64,000 nucleotides of DNA from a virus (lineage: Duplodnaviria; Caudoviricetes). Below the pieces are notes generated by a model. It did no database searches. It worked only from the letters and a program-made list of their open reading frames with translations, and was not told the origin of the DNA. This document shows positions 7,001 through 59,504 of this stretch, one piece after another. The first letter of the stretch is position 1. Each line of letters begins with the position of its first letter. The DNA lies in IMG/VR virus record IMGVR_UViG_3300030419_006251, positions 128,001 to 192,000 of that record, one strand, 5' to 3'. Both the position numbers and the translations under genes were made by a program.

Positions 7001-8970
7001 CCATCCGTATTTTCATTTAGAAAGTCTAATAAATTATTTTTAAAATCTCTTAAATTAGTGGCCTGTTGCACTAAATCTGAAGATGCAAGTATCTTCTTAT
7101 AGTTCGGCGGCTGTTCTTCGCCATATTTGGTATTTAACCATGTATTCCAAGCATTGAGTCGCTTAGTACTTACAGCAGGTTCGTAGGAGTCAATATTATC
7201 CTCTAGGTTTACAGACTCTGCATCTGAATATTCATCATCGTCAACCACCTCATCAACTTCCGGTACACCGGTATCTTCTAAGGTTTCGATAACGCACATT
7301 CGATTGTCTTCGTAGGCCATCGGCACTCGCTTTTTTCCATAATGATTAATTAACCATCTAACGCGAGTAAACATACCATCTGCCACATCTTCCGTTGTAA
7401 ATTCTACTTCATAAGGTAGACTTACATCAACGCCTTCTTCGCTAGTTACAGAATATGGTTGGTCTTCTCCGGGGGCGGCCTCTGGTATTTGACTAAATAT
7501 TAATGATGGTATGCATATTAATACTTTGATTCTGGAGCCTGCTGTATTTGAAACATACCAATCTGTGGCCATAACCTGATCATAAGTTAGTAAATATTGA
7601 CCAGCAGGACTCTGCTCAACATCGTACTGCCATGCCTTAGATGGTGTAGCAATACCCACATCTGCCGAAGGACCGCTAGAAACTTGTTGTTCTTCTTGTT
7701 CATGACTAATAAACTCTATATCTGCAGCTTCTTCCTCCTCCTCTTCGATCGCGGTTTCTTCCGTTACTTCTTCTTCATATTCAATAACCATAGTAGCCCA
7801 ATCTTCAAAAGTTTTGGGGTCATCATCGCTCAAGTATTCTTCATTGTGCGTCCGATTGCCAGTAACAAGATACATGCTCTCTATTTGATATAACACTGTA
7901 CTTTGTGATGAGGTTGCTTTATGGTATGATTCGTTATCGGCGTCCCAAACCCATAAGTTGCCAGCAAGATCTATGCGCAATCCAGTGGTAGATTTTGAAG
8001 TTGGTATGTATTCTGTTAAAGCGTCAGCCTTAGTAAGACTGGTTTCGTCAAATGCAATACCCTCTGCTTCGACATAATCTCTATATGTGCGCCAAGCGCT
8101 TGGCGCATCCTCATCTTCCGGGTCAGAAGAGACTTTAAAAAATGATGTCTCTGAATTCCAACCATATGGACTATTTGATCCATCCTCATTATCGGCATCG
8201 TAATACCAATCCTTTCCAGACGACGGGCTTCTGCTGACAGTTCCATGTTCAATAGGCTCGTTGTTCTCAGTCATATTGCCTTCGATGTCAAAATAGACGC
8301 GTTCTTTGCTAGCTGGGTCTATGGTTTCATAATCAGATGTATCTTCTGCATCTGCTGATCTAGTTGCACCCCCGCCTAGGCGCGCGCAGCCACTTTCTAT
8401 TGGAGATTCAAGAGAGCCTGGAGCAGGGATGGAGCCGTCCGGGCGACAGAGATCTAAAGGACCAACCCAATTAAGATCTTTTGCATAAAATCGAATTAAT
8501 TTAGCAAGGCCAGTGACTTTTGCCGATTCCATTACCGTGTTTTTAATCCAATCATCAAAGAGCGCGTCGGAATCAGTGCTCATCTCTATCCCCGACATGT
8601 CAGTCCAATCCTCAAGTGTATAGTCTGTCCACACAGTAACACAATAATCACAAGTTTTCTTATTTAGAAATGGTCTAACTCTGTTCTTCCAATCGGGAAT
8701 TTGAGATTCCGGATAATCCGGATCCGGAACACACTCCGGGCATAATGGCTCCGTACATATGTCATCTTCGTCTTCATCTTCCTCACAAGGAAAAATATCT
8801 GCTGCTGTTAAGTCAACTTCTTCTTCAGCCTCAGCGGCTTCAGTTTCTAGCTCGGGTGGGATGTCTGTCGGATCTATTGATGAGTCCGGATCTCTGTCGG
8901 TACCGACCTCAAGATCGTCTGCGGTATCTGTTGGATCTGTATCTGCTGTAGGATCTGTAGTCTCTGACAT
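1006..8970 (-). CDS. Very large acidic putative virion/baseplate-associated protein (2654 aa)
   Basis: Uninterrupted ORF between spike-like and gp25-like genes. Acidic, with a Cys-rich N-terminal patch and a central hydrophobic helical segment. No family recognised. Confidence 0.6.
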   Translation of the reverse strand: MSETTDPTADTDPTDTADDLEVGTDRDPDSSIDPTDIPPELETEAAEAEEEVDLTAADIFPCEEDEDEDDICTEPLCPECVPDPDYPESQIPDWKNRVRPFLNKKTCDYCVTVWTDYTLEDWTDMSGIEMSTDSDALFDDWIKNTVMESAKVTGLAKLIRFYAKDLNWVGPLDLCRPDGSIPAPGSLESPIESGCARLGGGATRSADAEDTSDYETIDPASKERVYFDIEGNMTENNEPIEHGTVSRSPSSGKDWYYDADNEDGSNSPYGWNSETSFFKVSSDPEDEDAPSAWRTYRDYVEAEGIAFDETSLTKADALTEYIPTSKSTTGLRIDLAGNLWVWDADNESYHKATSSQSTVLYQIESMYLVTGNRTHNEEYLSDDDPKTFEDWATMVIEYEEEVTEETAIEEEEEEAADIEFISHEQEEQQVSSGPSADVGIATPSKAWQYDVEQSPAGQYLLTYDQVMATDWYVSNTAGSRIKVLICIPSLIFSQIPEAAPGEDQPYSVTSEEGVDVSLPYEVEFTTEDVADGMFTRVRWLINHYGKKRVPMAYEDNRMCVIETLEDTGVPEVDEVVDDDEYSDAESVNLEDNIDSYEPAVSTKRLNAWNTWLNTKYGEEQPPNYKKILASSDLVQQATNLRDFKNNLLDFLNENTDGWQFTYLGEHNKKNGIENIKIEFSPTYSIQSVTYNLRGCPPITLTGQDYYKTLLQEKYDDEEYLMNPFVNPEFKIAKGWDDFANTYPQTDPRTMAYVASITYMDDVAKATTPMEWQDFITLWTYPKVRIANFNELADNDPACNSTSSALEGILQSGVNVFIETLTSKFDQQLCQTIEEGSEAWADYWTKYHTPDDPENTGTRLRDPRGDPEGKLVKSPFGQDLEEATKAAVNQVLTNDPFMSQMIDSLDYIRSADDLWRKILGQLGVCGLLDFLETLFQCLFNGVDFGDILEKALISALQNMDMNLFKRLLVGLPPHVQNEIAANATAGLSENLQDWRPWDKEPSLERQQRTAQVLQDAAIQKHYEAAQEQLNENPTTMNREQEVTLTTTEQTGLGPDDYTTTTQTETLRWTTSHSSIDDPVNSAAKQEAYEEGLADAATITPSYQGTDDASKTKTLGSVLVDSGAVKDIKDAYIKALMDLLQPDEILDLLENIPGFTFLRNLIDLTKCPGVAIFHPPIKGWYNDLTRAISQWDFGFCRSGKPLIIPRIVFNRPYRFWDAMKAIGNLILAALEAAIVQALMTMLKKILEWIFGVLCSLMNVLGSAALTATGLMSAGEFSNLLKDTMCGTNATDNEIATAMATILSALGATGAQTEEELLAIGEIALTSMGSYMEVASVRDSLELLGGSPSTRALRDAADFYRYSETPLAGTLGNANNLRALYKTIGQTFIGTKTIDALRDSYLESKSCVDEDGCGPVIPFCGVREPIKDAFCNLGIPEEACEHLTDSTLADLDSTLDEALKLAQSGGDISNLLPTGSLIPCENMDDGSFLPRDTAFDRSMFANDVGDDIQFLQITYERELIGPGGLMDRIQSDMDGRGKQEHDRRLVDLLEKAIAGNPETVGKYLRDIMRSGATEEGATIRVHREIASSTVIDNYGRNFTFLNFDPVEGVGYGALDGGFSKSWDNSLGTYQGKNVYVSSYGRVWEDTKKYYHELDSNDRKLDKDESTAYDVWEVNEAYKRIATDWGVEYEYDPRYVIYRKYKIGKEKFHYYPEPHARMQFMGTDPSMGANSHKEAGQPAYHFHFWNEERNELDFIPEGYTDTALYDEEELTKDVGKLHIFRLVPNAIGVSRSSQAASSVGEYTMQFDKDRRGNFDSFFKGFGPLSNGAPNSSRSKSALDPIIRVVRALDSDILDHISSMELDVANRQQKPTIWATHITNVIESAIVESGEEAEQSNLESVWQKLYGQDYSGLCESFVEEYAAQISDDDDAWDSGLLNFYLKELSEEECLDAGISKFKGDDEDKKEIPLPRSTRKKNRKEFPYHPNNNEDTGWYRPVPVPGSEGLSEIVDLPEEEYGVGAYYVHQQYQKGWARIADEYLPGPANPCEEQVSADIFNWSGVAEHISKAMDNIDSDDRVSSDPSCVWDPPFDRVNDRESKAKIEGYIKATMRTTIFEKMICAVPAFMKFNPSTGCFGDLLAAYIFANLRESLFQYSRRSKIFGSLGRISKGHNRYDYKFLEQCCAMYARQVSAGNMSGSAEALMAVEKIDEINTKLYNQPQADWFHRKRKARRRKVWENSEPYMTTVAKELFRHEFEEGSGKFANWACSEIDNLQLHFLQGGLNLSEGPIGAYVTDVAVDLQEDRFGGEGYYSGNFAYLQNGGFVVEKYIKIEDYEDSSEAAIDLDTGSRSEHLFKIVNMEEWKTYLSENNNFTYTSTTEEGDEEDSYKISDLFEKWSYGLRLSYVPSFHGTSDIQQLCGQVSSDISLKNKAFNIEYLGGDPVNLIPIASTEIEIPGDLKINNFDIVEDYDFECMLDQFISDTEFRTLFEYVFALDRFLSLPTIYMMHCFLDSIGMDDGWYQEVSPENAPGDGPGDPYDGSRIGQFMRNIQHSAGPGLETGDWLLWFKGQQKKKSYRNWDKYGKAPPFGETKELLRDFFMHAYDWDNKVNGKFSLPKFKFKVNLPPFFDWNPKFFVNRQLEGPECDDDMGADAEKAAYNSG

Positions 8971-12721: not shown

Positions 12722-13714
12722 CTATATGCCTCTTTGAAATAAATCTTTTAAATCCGCTTCATACATCATAGCAGCTAACTCTTTGAAATTAACTTTTGGC
12801 TGCCATCCTAAAACTTCCTTCGCTTTAGTAGGATCTCCTAATAGAAGCGGAACTTCGTGTGGTCTAAATAGTCGCTCATCTATTTTAACATGTTTCTCTA
12901 TGCTTAAGCCGGCCTCTTCAAACACTGTCTCTAGAAATTCTCTAACAGTATGTGTTTCACCCGTTGCGATTACAAAATCATCAGGGGTTTCCTGTTGCAA
13001 CATGAGCCACATGGCTTCAACATAATCGCCGGCGAAACCCCAGTCTCTTTTTGCATCTAGGTTTCCTAAATATAGTGTATCTTCTAAACCAAGCTTAATT
13101 CTTGCAGCTGCTCTTGTAATCTTGCGTGTAACAAATGTTTCTCCTCTTCGTGGAGATTCGTGATTAAACAAAATTCCATTTGCTCCAAAAATATTGTAAC
13201 TTTCTCGATAATTCCGCACAATATTGTAAGCAAAGACTTTAGAACAAGCATATGGTGATGCCGGCATTAACCTAGTATCTTCATCTTGTGGATGAGCTGG
13301 ATTGTCTCCATACATCTCAGAGGACGATGCCTGATAAAACTTTGCCCATGGGCAAACATTTCTTACAGCTTCTAATAACCTGAGTGTTCCCATAGCAACA
13401 TAATTTGCTGTTTCTTCTGGAGTGTCAAAAGAGACTCGTACATGCGACTGTGCCGCTAAATTGTATACCTCGTCTGGTTTATATTTTGCCAATATTCTAT
13501 GCAAACATCCAGAATCGTTCACATTGCCGTATACTAAATCAAAATTTTCTATTTTGTCCGAGCTTTCAAATATATGATCGATCCGGTCTGTCGAAATTAG
13601 AGAAGTTCTTCTCTTCATCCCAATAACTCGATATCCTTTATCTATTAAAAAGTCTGCCAAATAAGAGCCGTCCTGTCCTGTAACTCCCGTAATTAATGCT
13701 TTTTTTTGTGTCAT
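12722..13714 (-). CDS. gmd: GDP-mannose 4,6-dehydratase
   Basis: [61 protein letters not shown]. Confidence 0.97.
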
Positions 13715-14637
13715 TTTGTTCCTCTAATGTTTGGATAATTTGTTAAAAACCAATCACATGAATTTTTAAGTGCTGTTTCGAAGTTTGTATACATGTTTTT
13801 ACGCCATCCTAACTGTAATAAGCTTTGATTGGTTGATGGCTTTCGAAACTGTCCTGACGGCTTAGATGTGTCCCATATAATTGAATTATGGTACTCAAGA
13901 TTGTGCGCTATCATCTGAGCTATAGTGCCGATTGAATATTCTCCCGTGTCTCCCACATTGATTGGGGCGCGGCCATCGTAATGTTCTAATAGAAATAATA
14001 AAATATTTGCTAAATCGACCGAATATGTAAATTCTCTCAGAGGAGTGCCATCACCCCATAATACAACATTCTCATTCTTTTGTTTAGCATTATACATTTT
14101 ATGTATTAAGGCAGGAATTACATGCGAGTCGTTTAAATCGTAATTGTCGTTTTCTCCGAATAAATTATTCGGTACCGCAGTAATAAAATTACAACCATAT
14201 TGATCGCGATAGGCCTGCGATTGTATATCCAACATACGCTTTGCGTGCGCATACGCATAATTTGACTTGTGCGGAGATCCACTATGAATTTGTTCTTCGG
14301 TTAAAGGATACATAACATTGTCTGGGTATATACATGTGCTCAAAAGTGACAGAACTTTTTCTGCTTTATGTTTATGTGCACTATCAAGCACATTTGTATT
14401 AATCCTAATATTATCAGAATAAAAATCTCCTAGATTCTCCATATTTGCTTTGATGCCACCGACTTTTGCTGCCAAATGAATCACTTGTTCTGGCTGATGT
14501 GTCCTAAACATTTCTTCGGCTTGTCGACGATCTCGTAAATCATAATCTGTAGAAGCTACAAAGGTTGCTTCTGGGATCAAGCGCTTAAGAGCGTGACCGA
14601 CCATACCCGAACCTCCAGTTACAAGAATTCTTTTCAT
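13711..14637 (-). CDS. fcl: GDP-L-fucose synthase
   Basis: [51 protein letters not shown]; coupled to gmd. Confidence 0.93.
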
Positions 14638-15561
14638 TTATTCACTCGCATATTCCATAATAGTTGGGTAGTAGTATTTATCGAAATAAACATCAGGTTT
14701 GTGATTTTCATTATAATCCTTATATGCTCTTTCTCCATAATCTTTATATCTTTCGTTCTCTAACATATACACAATTTTATCTTCTAAATCTTGAAAATCA
14801 TCTTGTATAACACAATAGTCTGTAAATGGCATATGCTCTTCCGATACCGACTTATTTCTCATCTTTGGCATTATTATTCCAGCTTTGCAACTAGCTAATT
14901 GCCAAATTCTCCATGCATCGTATGAATTCCCAAAATAGTGTAGTCCTATTTTACATCGATTTGCAGAATATTTAAAGGCATCCGACTGTAAGCCTCCGTG
15001 CGGATTCCAATCCTCAAAATTTAAAGCCCAATTTAAATGCTTTAGATTTCCTTCGGATAATTTTAAAACATGCTCATTAAACGGGCGACGACGAATATTG
15101 GTCATATTTGCCATAAAAAATATATCTATTGGACGGCCGTCTTTTTCTGCTTCAGGGTCTCTTAGTGAGTCAATAACAAAATGGAAAGGTTCTATTGGCG
15201 TATGTGGCCACATATTTACAGTCTGATCCGTTAATTCTCGCTGCATAATTAAGTCTGGTTTTCTATTACTCCAAATTTGCACATGTTCATGGTCTGTGGT
15301 ATCGTGCTGAATTAGAAAGGCGTCTTGAAAATAGTTGTTAATTAAGTGATTTGTGATTGGTATCGTATCGTTTTCGTGCAAATATAATACTACATTCTTA
15401 TATGTGTGTTCTGGGCCATGTTTTAATATATTGTCTGCGAATGGTCTTAGGGTTTTTTCATCTATGATATCAATCGTGTGACCCTTTTTGGCAAATGATT
15501 CAAACAAGAAAGTAGAATTTTTGACAAACGAATAATTAAAAAATAAAAAATCTTTATGCAT
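14638..15561 (-). CDS. Putative glycosyltransferase (GT-B, CgeB/YkvP-like C-terminus)
   Basis: C-terminal CKIGLHYFG...RIWQLASC...DLEDKIVYML pattern. Start moved to the ATG at 15561 (RBS GGAG). Confidence 0.55.
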   Translation of the reverse strand: MHKDFLFFNYSFVKNSTFLFESFAKKGHTIDIIDEKTLRPFADNILKHGPEHTYKNVVLYLHENDTIPITNHLINNYFQDAFLIQHDTTDHEHVQIWSNRKPDLIMQRELTDQTVNMWPHTPIEPFHFVIDSLRDPEAEKDGRPIDIFFMANMTNIRRRPFNEHVLKLSEGNLKHLNWALNFEDWNPHGGLQSDAFKYSANRCKIGLHYFGNSYDAWRIWQLASCKAGIIMPKMRNKSVSEEHMPFTDYCVIQDDFQDLEDKIVYMLENERYKDYGERAYKDYNENHKPDVYFDKYYYPTIMEYASE

Positions 15562-15982
15562 ATTTTCTCCATAATAAAGCATAATCTGTACACACTCCGT
15601 ACAGATTAGGATAAGTTTCAGTTGGGGCATTTAAATGAACTGTTATTCCATTTTGAATATAGTTTTCCGGATAACACCAAATATGACCTTTGCTTGTCTG
15701 TGTCATAACATCACTTTCATGCCAAAACCAATTAAAGTTAGTTTTTTGTAGCTGTTCTACAGCTTCAATGTTTTTACAGTGCAACCACATTCGCGGATCA
15801 AAAAAGTTTTGACTAACTTCATATGTTGGTAAATCGTGACCTAAAAACCATTTTTCGCTGGTAAACCACACATCTACCTCTACATCGAACCCCAAAGCTA
15901 TAGCTGTTAACAAATATTCTGGCCTGTTCTCTTTGCTCGGATCAGCGCCACTTATGTTTCCTCGGTGTGATATTATATGCAC
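15554..15982 (-). CDS. PLC-like/glycerophosphodiester phosphodiesterase-like protein
   Basis: IISHRGN, DVEVDV, FLGHD, WLHCKN motifs. Confidence 0.7.
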   Translation of the reverse strand: MHIISHRGNISGADPSKENRPEYLLTAIALGFDVEVDVWFTSEKWFLGHDLPTYEVSQNFFDPRMWLHCKNIEAVEQLQKTNFNWFWHESDVMTQTSKGHIWCYPENYIQNGITVHLNAPTETYPNLYGVCTDYALLWRKYA

Positions 15983-15983
15983 C

Positions 15984-16709
15984 CTATCTCCTGTGTCTCC
16001 AGTTATTTAAAAATTTTGTAAGATCTTCTGGCGTTCCCAGGCCCCACATTTCAGATACATAAAATGGGATCAATGACTTACCATCTTGGATTAGTTCGTT
16101 ATAAACTGGAGCAATATAAAATTCATTATTGACTCGTATATCTTTCTCAATCATTTGTTTCGCATATTTAACAAAATCTGAGCCTTTACGATACCAATAA
16201 ATTCCACAAGTCGCAATATTTGAAATTGGTCGCTTTTCTGCTACCTCTGTAATAAATCCACGAGAATTTGTTTTTACAAAAGACCATTTTGGATGTACAG
16301 CATTGAAAGTAAACACAATCCCATCAACACTTGTAAGGCTCTTAAGTGTATCAAAATTATCTGGCTCATATTGAATAAACTGATCCGAATTTGCAATTAA
16401 AAGACTTTCATCGTTGTCAATATATTTTTCAGCTAAAAGCGCTGTGCAGGCGGCCCCTTCGGTTAATCCATTAACTGTTACATAATTGAAACGACCATTT
16501 GTAATTCTATCCAGCGTATCTAAAAGTCCAGAGTATTTCTGTACATGCTCTTCTCTAACAAGAAAAATATAATCACAATCAAAATCTAAATTTTCTACAA
16601 CGGATTGTATCATAGGCTTGCCAGCAACATCAATTAATGGCTTTGGAAAAGTATATCCCTCTTTTGCAAACCTGCTGCCTTCACCGGCCATTGGAATCAA
16701 GATCTTCAT
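15984..16709 (-). CDS. Sugar-phosphate nucleotidyltransferase
   Basis: ILIPMAGEGSRF...PKPLIDV (GxGxR/PKP motif). Confidence 0.88.
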   Translation of the reverse strand: MKILIPMAGEGSRFAKEGYTFPKPLIDVAGKPMIQSVVENLDFDCDYIFLVREEHVQKYSGLLDTLDRITNGRFNYVTVNGLTEGAACTALLAEKYIDNDESLLIANSDQFIQYEPDNFDTLKSLTSVDGIVFTFNAVHPKWSFVKTNSRGFITEVAEKRPISNIATCGIYWYRKGSDFVKYAKQMIEKDIRVNNEFYIAPVYNELIQDGKSLIPFYVSEMWGLGTPEDLTKFLNNWRHRR

Positions 16710-17316
16710 TTAAATACTCCTTAAATAATTTTATACATACATCATCAGGATTTTTGACCTGTATGATATTACAGCCAGAGGCAAGTGCCGCGGCCATTCC
16801 TTTGGGCGAATCCTCTACAATCAGCATAGAAGACTTGTCTATTTGAAAATGTTCCAAAACTTTAAGATACCCTTCTGGATGTGGTTTTGGATTTTTCACA
16901 TCTTGGTTAGTGATCACCAATTCAAACAAGTCAAAAATGCCGGTTTTTTGCAGCATTAAATCAGCAGTCATTCTGATACTGTTAGTATAGCATGCCACAT
17001 GTAATTGTCTATCTTTTAGCCAATTAATTAAATCTACTTTTTCTTGTCGTAATTCGGCATTTTCAGAAATAATTTTAACTGTCTTCTCTTGCTTCAAATC
17101 ATATACTCGCTCATGTTGTTCTTTGTTTAATATTCCCATTTCTGTTAGTTTGTTTAATTTTACTTTTGTAGGAATTCCATTAAAAGTTTTATAATGATCT
17201 TCGAGAGATATCTCATAATTGCATATTTCTTTTAACGATTCGTTCAAAGCAACTCGATGCCATTCACATGCGTCGACAAGCACCCCATCTAAATCGAATG
17301 TAACTAACCTAATCAC
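16681..17316 (-). CDS. HAD-family phosphatase (beta-PGM-like)
   Basis: FDLDGVL, KPHPEGY, VEDS motifs. Confidence 0.88.
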   Translation of the reverse strand: MIRLVTFDLDGVLVDACEWHRVALNESLKEICNYEISLEDHYKTFNGIPTKVKLNKLTEMGILNKEQHERVYDLKQEKTVKIISENAELRQEKVDLINWLKDRQLHVACYTNSIRMTADLMLQKTGIFDLFELVITNQDVKNPKPHPEGYLKVLEHFQIDKSSMLIVEDSPKGMAAALASGCNIIQVKNPDDVCIKLFKEYLNEDLDSNGR

Positions 17317-17668
17317 CTTTCATAATCCTGTGGCTGTCGCTGTCAAAGTGTTGTGTAGAAAATTCAAAAAGCTCTGTATCTTCTAATGCTATCATTTGAT
17401 GTCGAAGGCCACGATATACATGAAAGTTGTCGCCGCGCTCCAATATTAGCTCTTCTGCTTCTGCTATGTCATCTTTCTCAGAATATTTTACCAGCATTTT
17501 TCCAGATTGTATATAAAAAACCTCGTCTTTTAACTTATGATAATGCCAAGAGCAGCGCTTTCCCTTTACAAAATAAAGAAGTTTGCCACAGTATTCGTCA
17601 TTATTAACAATCCATTTTTCAAAGCCCCAACCTTTAGGGACAAAATTCATTTCTAAAGAAGTCTTCAT
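17309..17668 (-). CDS. Cupin-fold sugar isomerase-like protein
   Basis: VPKGWG, SWHYHKLKDEVFY, HQM cupin metal motifs. Confidence 0.8.
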   Translation of the reverse strand: MKTSLEMNFVPKGWGFEKWIVNNDEYCGKLLYFVKGKRCSWHYHKLKDEVFYIQSGKMLVKYSEKDDIAEAEELILERGDNFHVYRGLRHQMIALEDTELFEFSTQHFDSDSHRIMKGD

Positions 17669-17975
17669 CTCTTATTCCTCTGTCATCGACATAAATATCG
17701 CCGGCAGGTTTTCCCAAAAAGAGCATATGGTGTTTTACGCCCCATTCTTTTAGCTGCGCAGCTGTTTTATCATATAAATCTTTAATGGCCTTTTCGGCAT
17801 CATTGTTGTGTCTTCCCATTCCGCGGGCAGTCTGCATTATAATTGTGTTGCCCTGTTCATATAAAGCGTTAACAACCTTTACTCTTTCGACTATAGGCAT
17901 TGCTTTTTCGTATTCACCATAAGTGTTTGTACATATAGTTCCATCGATATCAAAAACATATGTCATTTTATCCAC
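17634..17975 (-). CDS. HAD-like capsule-biosynthesis phosphatase
   Basis: FDIDGTIC, TARG, GKPAGDIYVDDR. Confidence 0.8.
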   Translation of the reverse strand: MDKMTYVFDIDGTICTNTYGEYEKAMPIVERVKVVNALYEQGNTIIMQTARGMGRHNNDAEKAIKDLYDKTAAQLKEWGVKHHMLFLGKPAGDIYVDDRGIRDEDFFRNEFCP

Positions 17976-18631
17976 CTTTCAAAGTCTTTCATAAAGCCCT
18001 CTACAGATTCATCAGTTTTAACATGCGAGGTAGCCTTTTTAATAACAGAATACCCTGCTGTTACTATGTGGCATCCTTGGTTCCAACAATTAGATAAATC
18101 ATATGCATTGCGTATAGAGCCTGCGATGATTTCGCAATCTAATTTGTTATCATCGATAAACTTACGAGTTCTTCGAAGTACTTCGAGCGGATCTCCACCA
18201 ACATCTATTAGTCGGTTATAAAATAGTGAAACATATCGAGCCCCGGAAAGGGCTGCTAGTTGCAATTGTGTATCGCTAAAACAACAAGTACAATTAACTC
18301 GGATTCCTTGTTTTTTAAGTTGATCTATTACTCTTAATTCTTCAAAGCCTACAGGAATCTTAATATTCAAGTTCTTATAATCTATTCTTTCGCATATTTC
18401 AACAGCTTGTAATATCATGGAATCCGGCTCAGTAGCAAATACTTCAACCGAGACCGGGATGTCTACGCCGTACTGTACACACAAATCACAAATTTTTTGT
18501 ATGTGGTCATAAAAGTCTGTTTTTGGTTCTTTAGCCAAAAGGGAAGGATTAGTAGTTATCCCTTGTATGACTCCCTTTTGTAATAAGCTTTCTATTTCTT
18601 TCAAATTAGCAGTATCTGCAAATAATTTCAT
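17963..18631 (-). CDS. tal: Transaldolase (TalC/FSA family)
   Basis: FADTAN, GITTNPSLL, Schiff-base lysine in IKIP, VNCT, IIAGSIR. Confidence 0.9.
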   Translation of the reverse strand: MKLFADTANLKEIESLLQKGVIQGITTNPSLLAKEPKTDFYDHIQKICDLCVQYGVDIPVSVEVFATEPDSMILQAVEICERIDYKNLNIKIPVGFEELRVIDQLKKQGIRVNCTCCFSDTQLQLAALSGARYVSLFYNRLIDVGGDPLEVLRRTRKFIDDNKLDCEIIAGSIRNAYDLSNCWNQGCHIVTAGYSVIKKATSHVKTDESVEGFMKDFERWIK

Positions 18632-18632
18632 T

Positions 18633-19043
18633 TTATTCCTCGATGTGTTTATAGGTTTTGCCGTCTTCTACGATATGTGAGTCTCCATCGTCGTCCAGTG
18701 TTGAAAACTCAATAATTACGGTATCTTCTAATGCGATTCTCATATGCATAAATCCAACAGGTATATGAAAGACATCTCCTTCATTTAAGATAAGCGAGGT
18801 GTTCTTGGCGCGACCTATCCTTGTTCCCACTTTAAGTTTTCCAGACTCTATGTAATATGATTCTTCTTTTTTTATATGATATTCCATACTACTTTGAGTG
18901 CCCTTCTTCATAAAAATTCTTTTAACTGTATAGTGTTCATTTTCGAAAAGAGTCTTCATATTTCCCCAATATTTATCGACCTCTTTTATAACTCCATGAA
19001 TTGGAGGCAATTCTTGTCTTCCATATTTTATATCATTGGCCAT
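18633..19043 (-). CDS. Second cupin-fold protein
   Basis: VDKYWG, SMEYHIKKEESYYI, FMHMR. Start moved to the ATG at 19043. Confidence 0.75.
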   Translation of the reverse strand: MANDIKYGRQELPPIHGVIKEVDKYWGNMKTLFENEHYTVKRIFMKKGTQSSMEYHIKKEESYYIESGKLKVGTRIGRAKNTSLILNEGDVFHIPVGFMHMRIALEDTVIIEFSTLDDDGDSHIVEDGKTYKHIEE

Positions 19044-19716
19044 AATATTTTTCTTTTCCATTCTTGCGAAAAAAGTGTTTATCAATAACATATTTTGGTA
19101 TACGCATACTGCTTGCTCCAATTAAAGTTAAACTCTTGTACGCCATCTCCGCAACCAACTCTAAAACATAGGCCGTTTCTAATGTTTGTTCTATCGATGG
19201 CCCCCAAATAAAAGCGCCGTGGCCGGAAACCAACGAACAAGGCATTCTTTTGTAGTCAATGCCAGATGATTTAAAATATTTACAAATTTCTACACCTGTT
19301 TCAAGTTCATAATTGGTTTCTATCTGTCGTCTGTTCGGGTGTGGAACACAGGGTATATCTCCATAAAAATAATCTGCGTGTGTTGTTCCCAAGCAGGGTA
19401 TTTGCCTATTAGCTTGTGCAAATGTAGTGCTGTATTTGGAATGTGTATGTACTATGCAATTAATATTATTGAAATTCTTATAGATCTCCAAATGTGTAGG
19501 TGTATCGACGGATGGTTTTTTGCCATCAATTTTTTGACCGTATATTGTCAAAACAGATATATCCTCTTCTGTCGCAGCATCTAAATCAACTCCAGATGGT
19601 TTTATATAGATTATATCTCCTTGCCTGTAACTCACATTTCCCCAAGTTAACTCTACCAAGTCTTTTTCGACAATCCACCTATTGGCCTTTAAAACTTCTT
19701 TCTTAATTGAGCGCAT
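19033..19716 (-). CDS. araD: L-ribulose-5-phosphate 4-epimerase-like (class II aldolase family)
   Basis: TWGNVS, IKPSGV, KPSVDTPTH, IVHTHS, GTTHADYF, GHG. Confidence 0.88.
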   Translation of the reverse strand: MRSIKKEVLKANRWIVEKDLVELTWGNVSYRQGDIIYIKPSGVDLDAATEEDISVLTIYGQKIDGKKPSVDTPTHLEIYKNFNNINCIVHTHSKYSTTFAQANRQIPCLGTTHADYFYGDIPCVPHPNRRQIETNYELETGVEICKYFKSSGIDYKRMPCSLVSGHGAFIWGPSIEQTLETAYVLELVAEMAYKSLTLIGASSMRIPKYVIDKHFFRKNGKEKYYGQ

Positions 19717-20635
19717 AGAAATCCTCGTATGTAGGAGGCTTAGTGCCCATATTCAATGTTGATGCAGCTGCCCATTTGTTGCAGAATTCAAGATCAAAAT
19801 CGGGATATTTTACAGCAAATGCTGCGAGGAACGAGTCGCCGGCGCCGCAAGAATCTTTCGCTTCTATTGGATATCCGCCATGATGAATTACTCTGTTGCC
19901 ATCATATAAAACGCTGCCGCGAGATCCTAAAGTAACACAGATTCCCGCTCTTAAATTTTCCGAAAGTTCTTTCAATTGATTTAATACTGGTTTAAATGAA
20001 TTTGATGGACAATACAAAGATTTAAGATTATTAGTTGCCTCAGTTTCGTTCATACAAATAAGATTCGAGCCGGCGAAATGAAAATATTGATTTTTTCCGT
20101 CTGATATTTGCGAACTAGCGATGACTTTTATATCCCTCTCTTTCAAAAGTGATATTAATTCTTGAGTTTGTTTGGCATTATTGAAGAACCCCTTTCTGTA
20201 ATCTACTAGTAGTGCTGTTTCAAAACTTTCATTGTTTATTTTGTCTTTTATTTGCTGGATGTGCTCATTAGTCAACGAAACCTGTTGACCTCTATTAACT
20301 TGTAAAAATTTATACTTATTATCACCCTTACTTATCCAATATCTTGATTTAACGGTATTTTTACCACTGTGTTCTATCAAATATAAATCAAGATTTTCCG
20401 ATTTCCAAGAATTGAGAACATCTTTGTGTGCATCTTGCCCATTAGCTGTAATAAAAGTGACCTTTGCTGATAGAGATAACAAGTTACTAACCACATTGGC
20501 CGCTCCTCCAAAAGTGTATTCTTCTTCTACGAACTCGGTTTTCATAGTCGGAGTTTCTAGCGATATACCTATTGGGTTGCAAAAAATAGAATGATCTATG
20601 ATTGTATCGCCTATAACCAATATATTATCTTTCAT
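19703..20635 (-). CDS. PfkB-family sugar kinase, HldE/RfaE kinase-domain-like
   Basis: ILVIGDTIID, GGAANV, DSCGAGDSF. Confidence 0.82.
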   Translation of the reverse strand: MKDNILVIGDTIIDHSIFCNPIGISLETPTMKTEFVEEEYTFGGAANVVSNLLSLSAKVTFITANGQDAHKDVLNSWKSENLDLYLIEHSGKNTVKSRYWISKGDNKYKFLQVNRGQQVSLTNEHIQQIKDKINNESFETALLVDYRKGFFNNAKQTQELISLLKERDIKVIASSQISDGKNQYFHFAGSNLICMNETEATNNLKSLYCPSNSFKPVLNQLKELSENLRAGICVTLGSRGSVLYDGNRVIHHGGYPIEAKDSCGAGDSFLAAFAVKYPDFDLEFCNKWAAASTLNMGTKPPTYEDFYALN

Positions 20636-21491
20636 GCTTATCCCAATGTTGCTTTTCGTGAATTTTCTTTATTACACTTGTGGTGGAATAATTTTCCAAA
20701 AATGGATAAATTTTGATATCAATATGTCGTGGGATTCCATCTCTGGCCCTGACTTCTTCGGAAGTCCACTCTCCACCTTTGACAACAATAGATGGATCAA
20801 TCGCCTCAATAATACCAATACTCTTTGTATTATCAAATATAACCACCTCATCGACACAATGCAAGGATTCTAGTATTTTTTTTCTGTCATTTTGATTATT
20901 AATCGGCCGATCTGGCCCTTTAAGTTGCCGAACACTATTATCAGAATTGATTCCTACCACCAATTTATCTCCGAGAGATTTAGAAAAATTCAGTAATTCA
21001 ATATGACCTGTGTGTAGGATATCGAAGACCCCGTTTGTAAAGACCACTCTTTTCTTCTTAGAAGATAGTTTTTCGACTCTCTTAACATGGCGACCTTCTC
21101 CAAACTTAGTTTGCAGCCACAAATCTAAAATTTTAAAGTTTTCTTCTTCAGAGGTAGTCCAGTGTCCTAAACATAATATATTTGAATCATTGTGTTCTCT
21201 GCATTTAGGGGCCGTAGTAACATTATGCACCAATGCTGCTCTGACTTTTTCAAATCGGTTTGCCGCTATGCTCATTCCGACTCCGGTGCCACATATCAAT
21301 ATACCACTCTGTATATCGTCGTTAGTCAACATTTGACTTAACTGGTTCGCATAGTCTACATAATCTACTTTTCTTGCCTCGTCAAATGGTCCAATATCTA
21401 CAGCAATAAAATTGTTTTCTTTGAGATATTTTCGTATTTTATTTTTTAATGCTATTCCGTTATGATCGGAGGAAAGTCCTATTATTTTCAT
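20625..21491 (-). CDS. Fusion of RpiB/LacAB sugar-phosphate isomerase and HldE/RfaE domain II nucleotidyltransferase
   Basis: N-half: SDHNG, ILICGTGVGMSIAANR, REHNDSNIL, FGEGRH. C-half: FTNGVFDILHTGH, VVGINSD, KGGEW, YSTT. Confidence 0.9.
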   Translation of the reverse strand: MKIIGLSSDHNGIALKNKIRKYLKENNFIAVDIGPFDEARKVDYVDYANQLSQMLTNDDIQSGILICGTGVGMSIAANRFEKVRAALVHNVTTAPKCREHNDSNILCLGHWTTSEEENFKILDLWLQTKFGEGRHVKRVEKLSSKKKRVVFTNGVFDILHTGHIELLNFSKSLGDKLVVGINSDNSVRQLKGPDRPINNQNDRKKILESLHCVDEVVIFDNTKSIGIIEAIDPSIVVKGGEWTSEEVRARDGIPRHIDIKIYPFLENYSTTSVIKKIHEKQHWDKHER

Positions 21492-21501: not shown

Positions 21502-22182
21502 TTAGGATTTTGTATATTTTACTATATTCCATTTATCTGAAAATTTAAACGATGTCGGCTTGATTGTGTGAAAAAATAATTTATCTGTTTTATGTGTCAT
21601 GCCATCAATAAGGTTGATAACACTACTATCAATACAATGTATTTCTGATGCATTTTGGATAATTTTTACATAATCGAGCAAGTTCTCCGTCAATCCGGGG
21701 CGAATTTCTATTACTGGTAATTTTGATTTTATATCCACAAAAAACTTTCCTATGCTGGACTGTTGGTGTAATAAAACATAATCCTTTTTGGTGTGCACTA
21801 AAGTCTCGTATAGTTTATCAGAATTTGGTATGTGGCTCGGCAGTTTAAAGTTTGAATATCTGATGGAAAAATCTAGGTTTAATTGTTCATAAAAGCATAT
21901 ATTACATTCTAATTCGCAAGTATCTAAATATTCAAATCCAACTCTAAGTACCGGTAGCTTCTTAGTATTACAGTAGTCTATAACATCCCTGTGTTCTACG
22001 GCCACAGGAAACACTGTTATATTATCCCAATCTTGATATAGGCACTGTACAGTATTAAAGTTGTGAAGCTTGGCTGGTAAATGAATTTTATCGTATGTTG
22101 TTGCAACTTGATGTACTAAGCCGTTGCATACGAAATGATCGCCCAAACCTAAGTGGTGATGTAGAACAACTTCTTTATTCAT
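21502..22182 (-). CDS. Hypothetical glycosyltransferase-like protein
   Basis: HLGLGD and IHCIDSS motifs reminiscent of GT-B sugar transferases; island context. Confidence 0.4.
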   Translation of the reverse strand: MNKEVVLHHHLGLGDHFVCNGLVHQVATTYDKIHLPAKLHNFNTVQCLYQDWDNITVFPVAVEHRDVIDYCNTKKLPVLRVGFEYLDTCELECNICFYEQLNLDFSIRYSNFKLPSHIPNSDKLYETLVHTKKDYVLLHQQSSIGKFFVDIKSKLPVIEIRPGLTENLLDYVKIIQNASEIHCIDSSVINLIDGMTHKTDKLFFHTIKPTSFKFSDKWNIVKYTKS

Positions 22183-23068
22183 CTTTAAGCCAATTTTCTA
22201 ATTTAATTTTTGGCGTCCAGTTGAGCAAATTCTGCGCTTTTGTATTATCAGCCAATGAAATTTCAGCTTCCGCTGGGCGAGGCGGAATGAAAGTATATTC
22301 TCCTCCGACAAGTTTTGCTAGCTCAACAATGCTGTGATTTTCTCCCGTTCCTATGTTTATAAGTTGGCCAATTGGCTTCTTATTTTCTAAATCTGCTGCT
22401 AATATATTAGCGGCGACTACATCAAGCACATTGGTAAAGTCTCTTCGCTGCCTTCCTGAGCCTATTATAGTCATCGGCAGACCCGCACCCTTCTGTCTTA
22501 GAAAGAGACCTACTACGGGTGCATATTGTCCTCTTACGGGCTGCCTTTTTCCATATACATTAAAATATCTGAAGACAACGGTTTCAAGCCCATATAAATC
22601 CATATACATTTTACACAAATCTTCGCCGGCACATTTCGAAATTGAATAAGGATTTAAACAATCTCGCGGCATATCCTCGTGGAGTGGAGGAATGTTTTTA
22701 AGTCCATAAGCAGCAGAAGTAGAGGAATAAACTACCCGTTTAACACCAGCTTCGCGTGATGCTTGAAGTATGTTGCATGTGCCGACAGTGTTTACGGTTG
22801 TTGCATAAATAGGATTGTGAATAGCTGGCTGGATTCTTGACTCAGCTGCTAGATGAAAAACAACATCGATATCTGTAAATAAGTGTCGTATTGCATCATA
22901 TTCGCAGATATCATATTTATAGTTTTTTGCATTCTCGTTCCAGTAAAATTGTTCATGTGCATCGGAAGACTCATTATCAATAACTATTACCTCATGTTCT
23001 AAATTGATCAATTCGTCAACTAAATTGCTTCCAATAAATCCAGCGCCGCCCGTAACTAAACATCTCAT
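22175..23068 (-). CDS. NAD-dependent epimerase/dehydratase (extended SDR)
   Basis: VTGGAGFIG, YSSTS, YSISK (YxxxK), RYFNVYG. Confidence 0.92.
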   Translation of the reverse strand: MRCLVTGGAGFIGSNLVDELINLEHEVIVIDNESSDAHEQFYWNENAKNYKYDICEYDAIRHLFTDIDVVFHLAAESRIQPAIHNPIYATTVNTVGTCNILQASREAGVKRVVYSSTSAAYGLKNIPPLHEDMPRDCLNPYSISKCAGEDLCKMYMDLYGLETVVFRYFNVYGKRQPVRGQYAPVVGLFLRQKGAGLPMTIIGSGRQRRDFTNVLDVVAANILAADLENKKPIGQLINIGTGENHSIVELAKLVGGEYTFIPPRPAEAEISLADNTKAQNLLNWTPKIKLENWLKDE

Positions 23069-24024: not shown

Positions 24025-24698
24025 TTTAATATCTCACTGTTATAAAGGCCGCATTGCGAACCTTGTCTTGTAATTGGTGGCTCCCACCAATATACTTTCA
24101 TATCCGCCTCCTTCATATGATAATTGATCTCGAAATCAATTGGAAGCGTAAATGGTTTTGTATTCTTGTTTATTATAGCAGCTGCTTCATAGTTTATTAA
24201 ATACGAATCTACACATTTGCTAGCCGGATGTTCTTTGCGATATGCCACAACTCCGTCTTTCACCTTTCTTTTAGGAATTCTTAAATTACAACCATTGCCT
24301 ATAAAAATCAAATCCCAATCTTTTGGAGTCGATAGCAAATTAAAATTAAACACTTCAACAAATCTATCACTAAATAACAAATCATCTTCTAAAATAAGGG
24401 CGGTAGATATTTTATTATTTACAATATCTTCCCAGATTTTAATATGTTTATATGCAATTGATTTTTCAGATTTAGTAAGTTCTTTCCAAGGTATTGGGCC
24501 GCCATAATCTAAACTAAAAATTTTTTTATACCACAAATCACAATTACTATCATAGATCTCACCTAACTGCTTCTCAGTTGGCTCACACTCAATCCATGTT
24601 ACATCAATATTAAACTCTTGAAGTGTTTTGAGTAATTTTTCTTTTCTTTCTCGCAGCGGAGTATAATGAGCTACATAAATCTTATCAACCATCAACAT
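24021..24698 (-). CDS. Glycosyltransferase, GT25-like
   Basis: YKHIKIW, ALILEDD, SYLIN, LPID. Confidence 0.75.
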   Translation of the reverse strand: MLMVDKIYVAHYTPLRERKEKLLKTLQEFNIDVTWIECEPTEKQLGEIYDSNCDLWYKKIFSLDYGGPIPWKELTKSEKSIAYKHIKIWEDIVNNKISTALILEDDLLFSDRFVEVFNFNLLSTPKDWDLIFIGNGCNLRIPKRKVKDGVVAYRKEHPASKCVDSYLINYEAAAIINKNTKPFTLPIDFEINYHMKEADMKVYWWEPPITRQGSQCGLYNSEILK

Positions 24699-25573
24699 AT
24701 TATATTCTCCTCAAAAAACTTAAGCACTGATTCGGGCTTAACCGAGTCTGGAATTTTTCCTGATGGGAAAACCGGGGCTGTGATGTATTGTTCATATAAA
24801 CTATCGTCTGATTCAATTTCCTCAATTAAATCGACTACTTCAACCAAATCATTAAATTTATGTACATCAATAAATGCGTCTTTGTTGAAGTCCAAATGAG
24901 CAATCGGAGATCCCCAATAGATAGGAATACTACCAATCGACAATGGGTGCAACAACTTTTCTGTTGTATATCCCGGATGCGATGAATTTTCTGCCGCAAT
25001 TGTAAACCGGTAATTTGAAATAAAATCTACTTTGGGCTTCTGATCTCCTCGACCCGGAATTCGTTGACCCATATTGTTTAAAAGACTGCCGGCAGAGTCA
25101 ACTCGCTCGTACATTGAAATTTCATTTAACAGTGGTACTCGAATTCCCGTATGGTTGGAAAAAATAAAATTACAAAACTTTGGTTTCTTCCTTATTTTTC
25201 GAGGGCCAATTAAATTATTTAAAGGAGTTAAATAAGAAACATCTCGCTCTTCTGAGTGGGGTACATTGAACCAATTAATCCACAGCACCCAGAGAGGTAG
25301 GCGATAGTTTTTTGGGTTGTCCGAAAAATCAAATGAAAATGCAAATTCGCATTCATCGAAATTGGGCCTTTTATTCTCGCCAGTATAATAAACCTTTCGC
25401 GTCGTGCTGTGCGCTTTGTGCGAAGTTCCGAAATCTGCATAAAAAAGAATATCTGGAGTTTCGCTTATCTCCACATCGTACTTGGTCGAAAGAAGATGAT
25501 AAAAATAATTGTCCGTTGCAACAAAGTTTGGCCAAAAGTCAGCAAAGTTAATTTTTAACTTCATATATCCCAC
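24692..25573 (-). CDS. Alpha-1,3-fucosyltransferase-like (GT10)
   Basis: YTGENKRP, KFCNFIFSN, YRFTIAAENSSHPGYTTEK, IPIYWG (GT10 motif). Confidence 0.88.
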   Translation of the reverse strand: MGYMKLKINFADFWPNFVATDNYFYHLLSTKYDVEISETPDILFYADFGTSHKAHSTTRKVYYTGENKRPNFDECEFAFSFDFSDNPKNYRLPLWVLWINWFNVPHSEERDVSYLTPLNNLIGPRKIRKKPKFCNFIFSNHTGIRVPLLNEISMYERVDSAGSLLNNMGQRIPGRGDQKPKVDFISNYRFTIAAENSSHPGYTTEKLLHPLSIGSIPIYWGSPIAHLDFNKDAFIDVHKFNDLVEVVDLIEEIESDDSLYEQYITAPVFPSGKIPDSVKPESVLKFFEENIIC

Positions 25574-59500: not shown

Positions 59501-59504
59501 GGAA

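What the first reader, a model, noticed from the sequence alone, without database searches (positions are those of the whole stretch)
17309..21491. GmhA-less heptose-like pathway with an RpiB-HldE nucleotidyltransferase fusion
Seen, consecutively: cupin, HAD phosphatase, transaldolase, cupin, AraD-like epimerase, HldE-like kinase, and an RpiB isomerase fused to an HldE domain-II nucleotidyltransferase. No GmhA (SIS-fold) gene is present in the window. Known: ADP-heptose is made as Tal (sedoheptulose-7-P) > GmhA isomerase > HldE kinase > GmhB HAD phosphatase > HldE adenylyltransferase, and RpiB is an aldose-ketose phosphate isomerase. Inference: the RpiB domain replaces GmhA. Together with the AraD-like epimerase and cupins it may yield an NDP-heptose or other sugar of non-standard stereochemistry, i.e. 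a variant nucleotide-sugar route.
Basis: partly seen in the sequence, partly recalled or inferred. Interest (0 to 1): 0.7.

Follow-up and report, generated by a model that had tools for sequence, protein, structure and literature searches.

The report
Phage cassette for activated higher sugar
A 200-kb uncultured phage carries a conserved, uncharacterised gene set that probably builds an ADP-heptose-like seven- or eight-carbon sugar without the usual first enzyme GmhA.

Summary
All seven genes are real, co-oriented and have intact catalytic motifs. No GmhA/SIS gene exists in the whole 200,760-bp virus genome. The genes form a conserved cassette: RpiB::HldC-like fusion, PfkB kinase, AraD, cupin A, transaldolase, small HAD. 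It occurs in about 50 viral contigs and in at least four bacterial loci, usually beside a GT9 or GT9-like transferase.

A sister cassette (PfkB, HldC-like nucleotidyltransferase, small HAD, cupin B) is found in 29 viral loci and in cultured cyanophage S-SSM7. It has no RpiB, no transaldolase, no AraD and no GmhA. There the cupin is the only candidate isomerase, so a cupin, not RpiB, most likely takes GmhA's place.

RpiB and transaldolase occur only with cupin A (48/48 against 0/29). RpiB and AraD keep canonical pentose-5-phosphate active sites. The simplest reading is a feeder module that makes octulose-8-phosphate from ribose-5-phosphate plus a C3 unit, as LmbR does in lincomycin synthesis. 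The product would then be an ADP-octose. A heptose product is not excluded.

No paper describing this cassette was found. Earlier notes of this scan flagged it on other DNA.

The parts
20625..21491 (-). RpiB (res. 4-142) :: HldC/HldE-domain-II-like nucleotidyltransferase (res. ~146-279) fusion, 288 aa
   Evidence: Pfam and NCBIfam matches. PDB matches: HldC 5x9q 1.4e-30, T. cruzi RpiB 3k7o 1.7e-30. D9, H10, C67, T69, R98, H100, N101, R134, H135 and R138 are invariant in 116 homologues. The STT motif reads FLENYSTT (Tyr, not Arg, before STT).
19703..20635 (-). PfkB-family sugar-phosphate kinase, HldE-domain-I-like (predicted anomeric kinase)
   Evidence: PF00294 90.5 bits. Best NCBIfam match is rfaE_dom_I at 117 bits, against ribokinase at 66.5. 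GD..ID and GAGDSF motifs are present. It is the least conserved cassette member, 27-53% identity.
19033..19716 (-). AraD-type L-ribulose-5-phosphate 4-epimerase (optional member of the cassette)
   Evidence: NF006047 is above its cut-off. Matches E. coli AraD 1jdi at 189.8 bits, E 5.7e-55, with His95/97/171, Asp120 and Tyr229 kept. Only Ser75 of the phosphate pocket changes, to Val, in 14/15 cassette AraDs. AraD is absent from 4 of 48 type-1 viral loci and from L001.
18633..19043 (-). Cupin A, PMI-type-II-like small cupin (136 aa); proposed ketose-P to aldose-P isomerase in GmhA's place
   Evidence: PF01050 is above its cut-off. WG, E-x-H-x4-E and H100 motifs are conserved. AF2 pLDDT is 89.8; Foldseek top hits include D-lyxose isomerase and archaeal PMIs among generic cupins. 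It is present in every cassette copy.
17963..18631 (-). Short transaldolase (222 aa) with altered substrate-site motif
   Evidence: Closest PDB entries are the true transaldolases 3r8r, 1vpx and 3s0c. The Glu (SVEV), Schiff-base Lys (IKIP) and Phe (not the Tyr of FSA) are kept. The canonical YVSPF[VL]GR motif reads YVS[LFIV]F.[NC]R in about 40 of 42 cassette transaldolases; two outliers keep Gly before the Arg. The housekeeping Tal of a cassette-bearing bacterium keeps YVSPFVGRLDD.
17634..17966 (-). Small HAD phosphatase (about 110 aa), not GmhB-type; proposed distal (7- or 8-) phosphatase
   Evidence: TIGR01689 40.7 bits. PDB 9iqw 'capsule biosynthesis protein' 4e-12. DIDGT, T49, K88 and DD motifs present. 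It is shared by both cassette types at 40-67% identity and is 47% identical to S-SSM7 SSSM7_130.
17309..17668 (-). Cupin B (119 aa), paralogue of cupin A; hallmark of the RpiB-less sister cassette
   Evidence: 39% identical to cupin A with a full HxH..E..H site. Orthologues at 65-91% identity sit in 29 viral loci beside PfkB/NT/small HAD without RpiB, Tal or AraD. 64% identical to S-SSM7 SSSM7_131.
21502..22182 (-). Compact GT9-like (heptosyltransferase-fold) protein, 226 aa, directly upstream of the fusion; probable transferase for the product
   Evidence: No Pfam hit. AF2 pLDDT is 95.5. Five of the six Foldseek PDB hits with E <= 0.001 are GT9 or ADP-heptose transferases: 3tov 1.4e-5 (two chains), WaaC 2h1h, WaaF 1psw, TibC 4rap. 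A profile built from its family hits the L002 GT9 protein and an ORF directly upstream of the L089 fusion.
22175..23068 (-). SDR nucleotide-sugar epimerase/dehydratase; possible tailoring of the NDP-sugar (not a conserved cassette member)
   Evidence: PF01370 190 bits; galE 149.6, heptose_epim 109.4, both below cut-offs. A 64% orthologue lies near the cassette in L093 and L172.

Best explanation
The cassette is a self-contained route to an ADP-heptose-like activated higher sugar, handed to an adjacent GT9-like transferase. Every enzyme assignment below is inferred from family, motifs and context; none is shown biochemically.

1. The RpiB domain makes ribose-5-P from ribulose-5-P.
2. The cassette transaldolase moves a dihydroxyacetone unit from fructose-6-P or sedoheptulose-7-P onto that pentose phosphate. 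The product is an octulose-8-P. LmbR does exactly this in lincomycin biosynthesis.
3. Where present, AraD changes the stereochemistry. It acts either on the pentulose-5-P pool or at C4 of the ketose.
4. Cupin A, a phosphomannose-isomerase-like metal enzyme, converts the ketose phosphate to the aldose phosphate. This is GmhA's role.
5. The PfkB kinase phosphorylates C1.
6. The small HAD removes the distal phosphate.
7. The HldC-like domain adenylylates the sugar-1-P.

The predicted product is an ADP-octose, a one-carbon-longer homologue of ADP-D-glycero-beta-D-manno-heptose. Cupin B could let the same kinase, phosphatase and nucleotidyltransferase also process a host ketose phosphate such as sedoheptulose-7-P.
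For: (a) The sister cassette gives a complete four-activity pathway with the cupin as the only isomerase. It comprises PfkB, HldC-like NT, small HAD and cupin B. It has RpiB in 0/29 loci, Tal in 0/29 and AraD in 0/29. No SIS_2 gene was found in the five type-2 records searched, including a complete 195-kb phage; no RpiB or Tal in the three searched for those. It is also in cultured S-SSM7.

(b) RpiB and Tal occur only with cupin A (48/48 viral loci). Each occurs once per type-1 phage genome, inside the cassette. RpiB's product ribose-5-P is a documented transaldolase acceptor that gives octulose-8-P (LmbR: PMC5854111, PMC4351081).

(c) RpiB keeps all canonical ribose-5-P catalytic and phosphate residues in 116/116 homologues and passes the rpiB equivalog cut-off. 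AraD keeps all catalytic residues. Both look like pentose-5-P enzymes.

(d) Tandem loci carry both cassette types, with a separate cupin and a separate NT (L085, L164/L165) and, in L085, a separate PfkB, but one shared HAD. This implies two different products.

(e) Nearly all cassette transaldolases carry a changed motif next to the catalytic Phe and the Arg that, from my memory of the T. acidophilum structures, binds the phosphate. Two outliers of 42 keep the Gly. The same bacterium's housekeeping Tal is canonical. Two of three cassette-bearing bacterial genomes have separate housekeeping Tal, and all three have a separate RpiB.

(f) A GT9 or GT9-fold transferase lies next to the cassette in the window, L089, L161 and L002.

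(g) The enzymes that touch the distal phosphate end are replaced or strongly diverged: the isomerase, the kinase at 117/345 bits, and the phosphatase. The NT, which acts after that phosphate is removed, stays close to HldC.
Against: - No biochemistry exists for any member. Chain length (C7 or C8) cannot be read from sequence.
- Ribose-5-P is abundant in every cell, and the lincomycin route needs no RpiB. A dedicated, fused RpiB may therefore mean it acts on a pathway-specific substrate.
- One bacterial locus (L162) has the fusion but no transaldolase within 10 kb.
- The cupin A fold match is generic and does not identify its substrate.
- The loci are not all independent; several are near-identical contigs.
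- I know of no aldo-octose reported in a bacterial surface glycan (own knowledge).
Confidence: 0.4

Rival explanations
1. The product is a heptose. Cupin A isomerises sedoheptulose-7-P in GmhA's place. RpiB and transaldolase, with host transketolase, only boost the sedoheptulose-7-P supply in infected or metabolically reduced cells. AraD, if present, epimerises the heptulose at C4 and so changes the ring configuration.
For: The NT is HldC-like, the kinase HldE-I-like and the neighbouring transferase GT9-like. Transaldolase normally makes or uses sedoheptulose-7-P. Phages are known to carry talC as a metabolic gene (own knowledge). L161 has split transketolase genes 6 kb upstream. The SAR11 genome shows no transaldolase other than the cassette copy.
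Against: The sister cassette does without RpiB and Tal. Tandem loci keep two sets of cupin and NT, and in L085 two PfkB genes, which argues for two different products. Two cassette-bearing bacteria already have housekeeping Tal and all three have RpiB. The cassette Tal has a changed substrate-site motif.
Confidence: 0.25
2. The RpiB domain itself isomerises sedoheptulose-7-P (or another pathway ketose phosphate) to the aldose phosphate and replaces GmhA. The cupins are epimerases or accessory enzymes.
For: The fusion of RpiB to the NT implies that RpiB belongs to the pathway, like the GmhA-HldE trifunctional enzymes mentioned in PMC11461863. Housekeeping RpiB copies exist in all three cassette-bearing bacteria, so the fused copy may have a special substrate. 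gmhA is absent from the phage. E. coli RpiB also accepts a six-carbon substrate, allose-6-P (own knowledge).
Against: All phosphate-binding and catalytic residues sit as in ribose-5-P isomerases in 116/116 members. The RpiB-less sister cassette works with a cupin only. A GmhA-like SIS gene lies about 1.7 kb upstream of the fusion in the SAR11 locus. This model leaves the PMI-like cupin A, present in every cassette, without a role.
Confidence: 0.12
3. The cassette activates a pentose, for example an NDP-ribofuranose or NDP-L-arabinofuranose. RpiB and AraD act first, then 1-kinase, 5-phosphatase and NT. Transaldolase and cupin serve other purposes.
For: RpiB and AraD have canonical pentose-5-P sites. 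The small HAD resembles capsule-locus phosphatases (TIGR01689, 9iqw). The PfkB family includes ribose-phosphate kinases.
Against: Transaldolase and cupin A are invariant core members, while AraD is optional. The NT is closest to heptose-1-P adenylyltransferases, and the neighbouring transferase has a GT9 fold.
Confidence: 0.07

Closest known systems
ADP-L/D-glycero-beta-D-manno-heptose pathway (GmhA, HldE or HldA+HldC, GmhB, HldD; GT9 heptosyltransferases)
   Same: The logic is the same: ketose-P isomerase, anomeric PfkB kinase, distal phosphatase, cytidylyltransferase-fold adenylyltransferase. The NT domain matches HldC 5x9q at E 1.4e-30. A GT9-fold transferase is adjacent.
   Different: There is no SIS-fold GmhA; a PMI-like cupin is present instead. 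There is no GmhB-type HAD-IIIA phosphatase; a roughly 110-aa HAD of another subfamily is present instead. The kinase is far below the HldE-I cut-off. The NT is fused to RpiB rather than to the kinase. Transaldolase and AraD are added. No clear HldD is present.
[quoted passage not shown]
   Same: A pathway-dedicated transaldolase precedes isomerase, kinase, phosphatase and NT. Ribose-5-P is the acceptor that would link RpiB to the transaldolase.
   Different: None of the downstream enzymes is of the Lmb type. Per the cited papers LmbN is an isomerase, LmbP a kinase and LmbO a guanylyltransferase. From my own knowledge, not checked here, these are SIS-, GHMP- and NTP_transferase-type; here the fold types are cupin, PfkB and HldC-like. 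Similarity of the cassette Tal to LmbR could not be tested because no sequence was available here. The context is a surface glycan, not an antibiotic.
RpiB-less sister cassette of marine myophages, e.g. Synechococcus phage S-SSM7 SSSM7_126-131 (NT, carbohydrate kinase, small HAD, cupin)
   Same: The small HAD is 47% identical and cupin B 64% identical. NT and PfkB are of the same type. No GmhA is present.
   Different: It lacks RpiB, transaldolase and AraD, and its NT is stand-alone. In RefSeq the HAD is labelled 'phosphoheptose isomerase' and the cupin 'cysteine dioxygenase'. Both labels look wrong.
Housekeeping RpiB, AraD and short transaldolases (including cyanophage talC-type metabolic genes)
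   Same: Catalytic residues are fully conserved. RpiB and AraD pass NCBIfam cut-offs.
   Different: Here they sit in a glycan operon. RpiB is fused to an NT. The transaldolase has a changed YVS[LFIV]F.[NC]R motif. Cassette-bearing bacteria keep separate housekeeping copies.

Membership tests
ADP-heptose pathway | SIS-fold sedoheptulose-7-P isomerase GmhA | tested here: not met
   No TIGR00441 or PF13580 match in the 200,760-bp genome. No TIGR00441 match in related phages G004 and G005. No PF13580 match in G008.
ADP-heptose pathway | HldE domain I / HldA heptose-7-P kinase (TIGR02198 equivalog) | tested here: inconclusive
   Best NCBIfam hit, but 117 bits against a cut-off of 345. PDB HldA 4e84 scores only 29 bits. 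PfkB motifs are intact.
ADP-heptose pathway | HldE domain II / HldC heptose-1-P adenylyltransferase (TIGR02199) | tested here: inconclusive
   158.4 bits against a cut-off of 181.5. HldC 5x9q 1.4e-30. HxGH and STT motifs are present.
ADP-heptose pathway | GmhB-type HAD-IIIA bisphosphate phosphatase | tested here: not met
   The small HAD matches TIGR01689 (40.7 bits) and only weakly HAD-SF-IIIA (21 bits against 44.6). It is about 110 aa.
ADP-heptose pathway | GT9 heptosyltransferase using the product | tested here: inconclusive
   No PF01075 hit in the genome. The 226-aa neighbour has a GT9 fold by Foldseek and weak profile similarity to a GT9 protein.
RpiB (ribose-5-phosphate isomerase B) | Family model above cut-off and catalytic Asp/His/Cys/Thr plus phosphate-binding Arg/His residues | tested here: met
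   PF02502 157 bits; TIGR01120 138.9 against 138.65. Residues are invariant in 116 homologues. Activity on ribose-5-P itself is not testable here.
AraD (L-ribulose-5-P 4-epimerase) | Zn ligands His95/97/171, Asp120, Tyr229, phosphate pocket | tested here: met
   NF006047 259.5 against 257. All residues are kept except Ser75, which is Val.
Transaldolase (short type) | Schiff-base Lys, Glu, Phe (not the Tyr of FSA), SPF.GR phosphate-site motif | tested here: inconclusive
   Lys, Glu and Phe are kept. The SPF.GR motif is changed in about 40 of 42 cassette copies. All NCBIfam equivalog scores are below cut-off.
Lincosamide-type octose pathway | Transaldolase that uses ribose-5-P as acceptor to give octulose-8-P | not testable with these tools
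   Needs an enzyme assay. The only support is indirect, from RpiB-Tal co-occurrence.
Lincosamide-type octose pathway | LmbN isomerase, LmbP kinase, LmbO guanylyltransferase (fold types SIS, GHMP, NTP_transferase from own knowledge) | tested here: not met
   No SIS gene is present. The isomerase candidates are a cupin and RpiB. The kinase is PfkB and the NT is CTP_transf_like. The Lmb fold types themselves were not checked here.
Type II phosphomannose isomerase cupin | PF01050 above cut-off; WG motif; Gln/His/Glu/His-type metal site | tested here: inconclusive
   Cupin A scores 29.9 against 23.6 on PF01050. The WG and E-x-H-x4-E...H motifs are conserved. The fold search is not specific.

The most novel reading that the evidence does not exclude
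Phages and marine, soil and candidate-phylum bacteria make an ADP-activated aldo-octose for surface glycans. The pathway would combine a dedicated RpiB-transaldolase carbon-extension module with a cupin isomerase that is a non-homologous replacement of GmhA. This would be the first nucleotide-octose pathway outside lincosamide antibiotics and a new monosaccharide class in cell envelopes.
Probability: 0.35. Interest if true: 0.8.

Novelty: new variant of a known kind. Interest (0 to 1): 0.62.

Why it matters
ADP-heptose chemistry underlies Gram-negative envelope assembly and is an innate-immune agonist. This work points to a widespread, unannotated variant that swaps the first enzyme for a cupin and adds a carbon-building module. 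That would mean current annotation misses a class of envelope sugars. RefSeq already mislabels members of the sister cassette.

For phage biology, it shows that jumbo marine phages carry a full precursor-to-transferase route beside their tail genes. The route probably remodels the host surface or decorates the virion.

The two-cassette comparison gives a clear experiment. Cupin A or B against the RpiB domain on C6, C7 and C8 ketose phosphates would settle both the isomerase and the chain length.

Tried and rejected
- The '34% identical fusions' L100, L103, L105 and L107 are not RpiB fusions. L107, the one checked, carries a canonical HldE (PfkB+NT) in a T4-like phage. They were dropped from the family.
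- Literature searches found nothing on this cassette: RpiB+heptose+nucleotidyltransferase; ribose-5-phosphate isomerase+HldE+phage; sedoheptulose+GmhA+RpiB; sedoheptulose+cupin+isomerase+heptose; octose+transaldolase+ribose 5-phosphate+nucleotidyltransferase.
- The 9IQW and bcbF/ecbF searches gave only irrelevant hits.
- The fold search of cupin A returned hundreds of cupins with similar E-values, so it cannot assign a substrate.
- Pfam at E<=1 gave nothing for the 226-aa protein. Only the fold search placed it.
- No cultured phage in INPHARED carries the full fusion. A PhoH search gave no close cultured relative, so the host remains unknown.
- I considered a methionine-salvage-like reading (class II aldolase family, HAD, cupin, kinase, isomerase). 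I rejected it because the aldolase-family protein scores as AraD (259 bits), not MtnB (77 bits), and an NT is present.
- I could not obtain the LmbR sequence, so I made no direct comparison with the cassette transaldolase.

Full report
**Setting**

The window is bases 128001-192000 of a 200,760-bp IMG/VR virus record that CheckV rates 100% complete. Nearly all long ORFs are on the minus strand. Neighbouring genes include a PhoH-like protein and an exonuclease. No close cultured relative was found.

The finding lies inside an 18-kb glycan region. That region also holds GDP-mannose 4,6-dehydratase (482 bits, above its equivalog cut-off), a GDP-fucose-synthase-like gene, a GT10 fucosyltransferase, GT25, GT2 and GT4 genes.

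**Observation**

- The fusion protein passes the RpiB equivalog cut-off narrowly (138.9 against 138.65). Its C-terminal half matches B. pseudomallei HldC (5x9q) at 109.7 bits, E 1.4e-30.
- The transaldolase is of the true transaldolase type (Glu and Phe), not the FSA type.
- AraD keeps His95/97/171, Asp120 and Tyr229.
- No gmhA or SIS_2 gene exists anywhere in the virus genome, nor any gmhA in two related phages of 171 and 197 kb.

**It is a conserved cassette**

The two-domain fusion defines a large family. More than 115 clusters at 90% identity have the same architecture, mostly from marine metagenomes.

In 15 viral contigs the order is the same: RpiB::NT, PfkB, [AraD], cupin A, transaldolase, small HAD. 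The same order holds in a deltaproteobacterial MAG and an Acidobacteriaceae MAG. A SAR11 single-cell genome carries the same genes in a different order (Tal, fusion, PfkB, bicupin, AraD, HAD). The flanking genes differ between loci. In the bacteria the cupin is a bicupin of 240-276 aa.

A GT9 gene lies directly upstream of the cassette in the deltaproteobacterial locus, and upstream of its transaldolase in the SAR11 locus. In the window the gene directly upstream of the fusion (21502-22182) has no Pfam match. It models with pLDDT 95.5. Five of its six Foldseek PDB hits with E <= 0.001 are GT9 or ADP-heptose transferases: Veillonella GT9 (two chains), WaaC, WaaF and TibC. Its family profile also finds the ORF directly upstream of the fusion in L089, and the SAR11 GT9 protein. 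So the product is very probably an ADP-heptose-like donor.

**Which enzyme replaces GmhA?**

Searching viral contigs with a cupin alignment gave 79 loci, of which 77 fall cleanly into two types; two (L211, L212) carry a divergent cupin, 37% identical to cupin A.
- *Type 1* (cupin A at 56% identity or more, 48 loci) always has the RpiB domain, NT, PfkB and transaldolase. It has the small HAD in 47 of 48 loci and AraD in 44.
- *Type 2* (cupin B at 65-91% identity, 29 loci) has PfkB, a stand-alone HldC-like NT, the small HAD, cupin B and SDR genes. None of the 29 has RpiB, transaldolase or AraD.

A complete type-2 phage of 195 kb with terminal repeats has no RpiB, no transaldolase and no SIS gene anywhere. 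Cultured Synechococcus phage S-SSM7 carries type 2. Its HAD is 47% and its cupin 64% identical to the window's.

Type 2 therefore has exactly four activities that parallel GmhA, HldA, GmhB and HldC, and the cupin is the only possible isomerase. Cupins A and B are paralogues (39% identity). They share phosphomannose-isomerase-type motifs, and PF01050 is above its cut-off for cupin A. By homology, cupin A is the best candidate for the ketose-phosphate to aldose-phosphate step in the window's cassette.

PMI converts fructose-6-P to mannose-6-P. That is the same stereochemical change as GmhA's reaction on sedoheptulose-7-P (established chemistry). The fold search is compatible with this: D-lyxose isomerase and archaeal PMIs are among the top hits. 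It is not specific, however.

**What then are RpiB, transaldolase and AraD for?**

They form an add-on module strictly tied to cupin A.
- RpiB's catalytic and phosphate-binding residues are invariant in 116 homologues.
- AraD's residues are equally canonical, apart from Ser75 changed to Val.
- So both look like pentose-5-phosphate enzymes, not enzymes re-tooled for a seven-carbon substrate.

RpiB makes an aldose phosphate, and a transaldolase needs an aldose phosphate acceptor. With ribose-5-P the product is D-glycero-D-altro-octulose-8-P. This is the documented first step of the lincosamide octose pathway. There it is followed by an isomerase, a kinase, a phosphatase and a nucleotidyltransferase (PMC5854111, PMC4351081).

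Further indirect support:
- Tandem loci keep both cassette types, with a separate cupin and NT (L085, L164/L165) and in L085 a separate PfkB, but one shared HAD. This implies two different products.
- About 40 of 42 cassette transaldolases replace the canonical YVSPF[VL]GR motif with YVS[LFIV]F.[NC]R; two outliers keep the Gly. The housekeeping transaldolase of a cassette-bearing bacterium stays canonical.
- Two of three cassette-bearing bacteria have housekeeping transaldolase, and all three have a stand-alone RpiB.
- The members that handle the distal phosphate end are replaced or highly diverged, whereas the NT stays HldC-like.

The window adds cupin B directly after the small HAD, with the same overlapping junction as in type 2. 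It has no second kinase or NT. It may therefore make two related sugars with one set of downstream enzymes. Alternatively, cupin B may serve the adjacent GDP-mannose/fucose genes. This is unresolved.

**Caveats**

- Chain length is an inference.
- One bacterial locus has the fusion without a nearby transaldolase.
- In the SAR11 locus a GmhA-like SIS gene sits about 1.7 kb upstream of the fusion, and an HldE-like pair sits about 8.5 kb upstream. This suggests the cassette runs alongside the standard heptose route rather than replacing it.
- The nucleotide is predicted to be ADP. The residue before the STT motif is Tyr in 104/116 members, not the Arg that reportedly allows CDP- and UDP-heptose synthesis (PMC11461863).

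**Novelty**

No paper describing the fusion or the cassette was found in five searches. No cultured phage record carries the fusion. Earlier AI notes of this scan flagged the same cassette on other genomes and reached similar C7-or-C8 readings. I treated them as leads only.

- the clean type-1/type-2 split as an argument for the cupin as isomerase;
- the strict RpiB-transaldolase coupling;
- the changed transaldolase motif;
- the GT9 fold of the upstream gene.

Noticed in passing
window 12722-17316 and 24692-25573: The region could hold a complete GDP-L-fucose branch: GMD (TIGR01472 482 bits, above cut-off), a GDP-fucose-synthase-like gene, a generic sugar-1-P nucleotidyltransferase (15984-16709), a beta-phosphoglucomutase-like HAD (16681-17316) and a GT10 alpha-1,3-fucosyltransferase. 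Together with cupin B, the HAD and NT could form a PMI/PMM/GMP set for GDP-mannose.
   Followed up: partly
L242 (Synechococcus phage S-SSM7 NC_015287) 7067-7781: RefSeq labels the small HAD phosphatase homologue 'phosphoheptose isomerase' (47% identical to the window's, DxD motif). It labels the cupin B homologue 'cysteine dioxygenase' (64% identical). Both labels look wrong.
   Followed up: partly
P0002, P0004, P0049; L162 10001-11410: Longer family members (441-469 aa) have the architecture NT-RpiB-NT, with two cytidylyltransferase-like domains flanking RpiB.
   Followed up: no
L107 9195-12656: A T4-like phage contig carries a canonical bifunctional HldE (PfkB+NT, 413 aa) flanked by NUDIX, a 2OG-Fe(II) oxygenase, an SDR and a cupin. 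No HAD and no GmhA were seen within the ORFs scanned; this may be another GmhA-less variant. L100, L103 and L105 gave the same kind of match but were not examined.
   Followed up: partly
L161 3020-4740: Split transketolase genes (N-terminal plus pyrimidine-binding/C-terminal parts) sit in the same deltaproteobacterial glycan cluster, 6 kb upstream of the cassette. They lie among methyltransferases and SDRs.
   Followed up: no
window 1006-8970 and 46425-53246: Two giant minus-strand ORFs of 2654 and 2273 aa flank the glycan and tail region.
   Followed up: no
window 58001-64000: GC content rises to 0.53-0.57 from 0.34-0.45 in the rest of the window, and GC skew flattens. ORFs there occur on both strands.
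   Followed up: no
window 19033-19716 (AraD residue 70): Ser75 (E. coli numbering) of the AraD phosphate pocket is Val in 14 of 15 cassette AraDs. All other pocket and catalytic residues are kept. This could hint at an altered substrate.
   Followed up: partly
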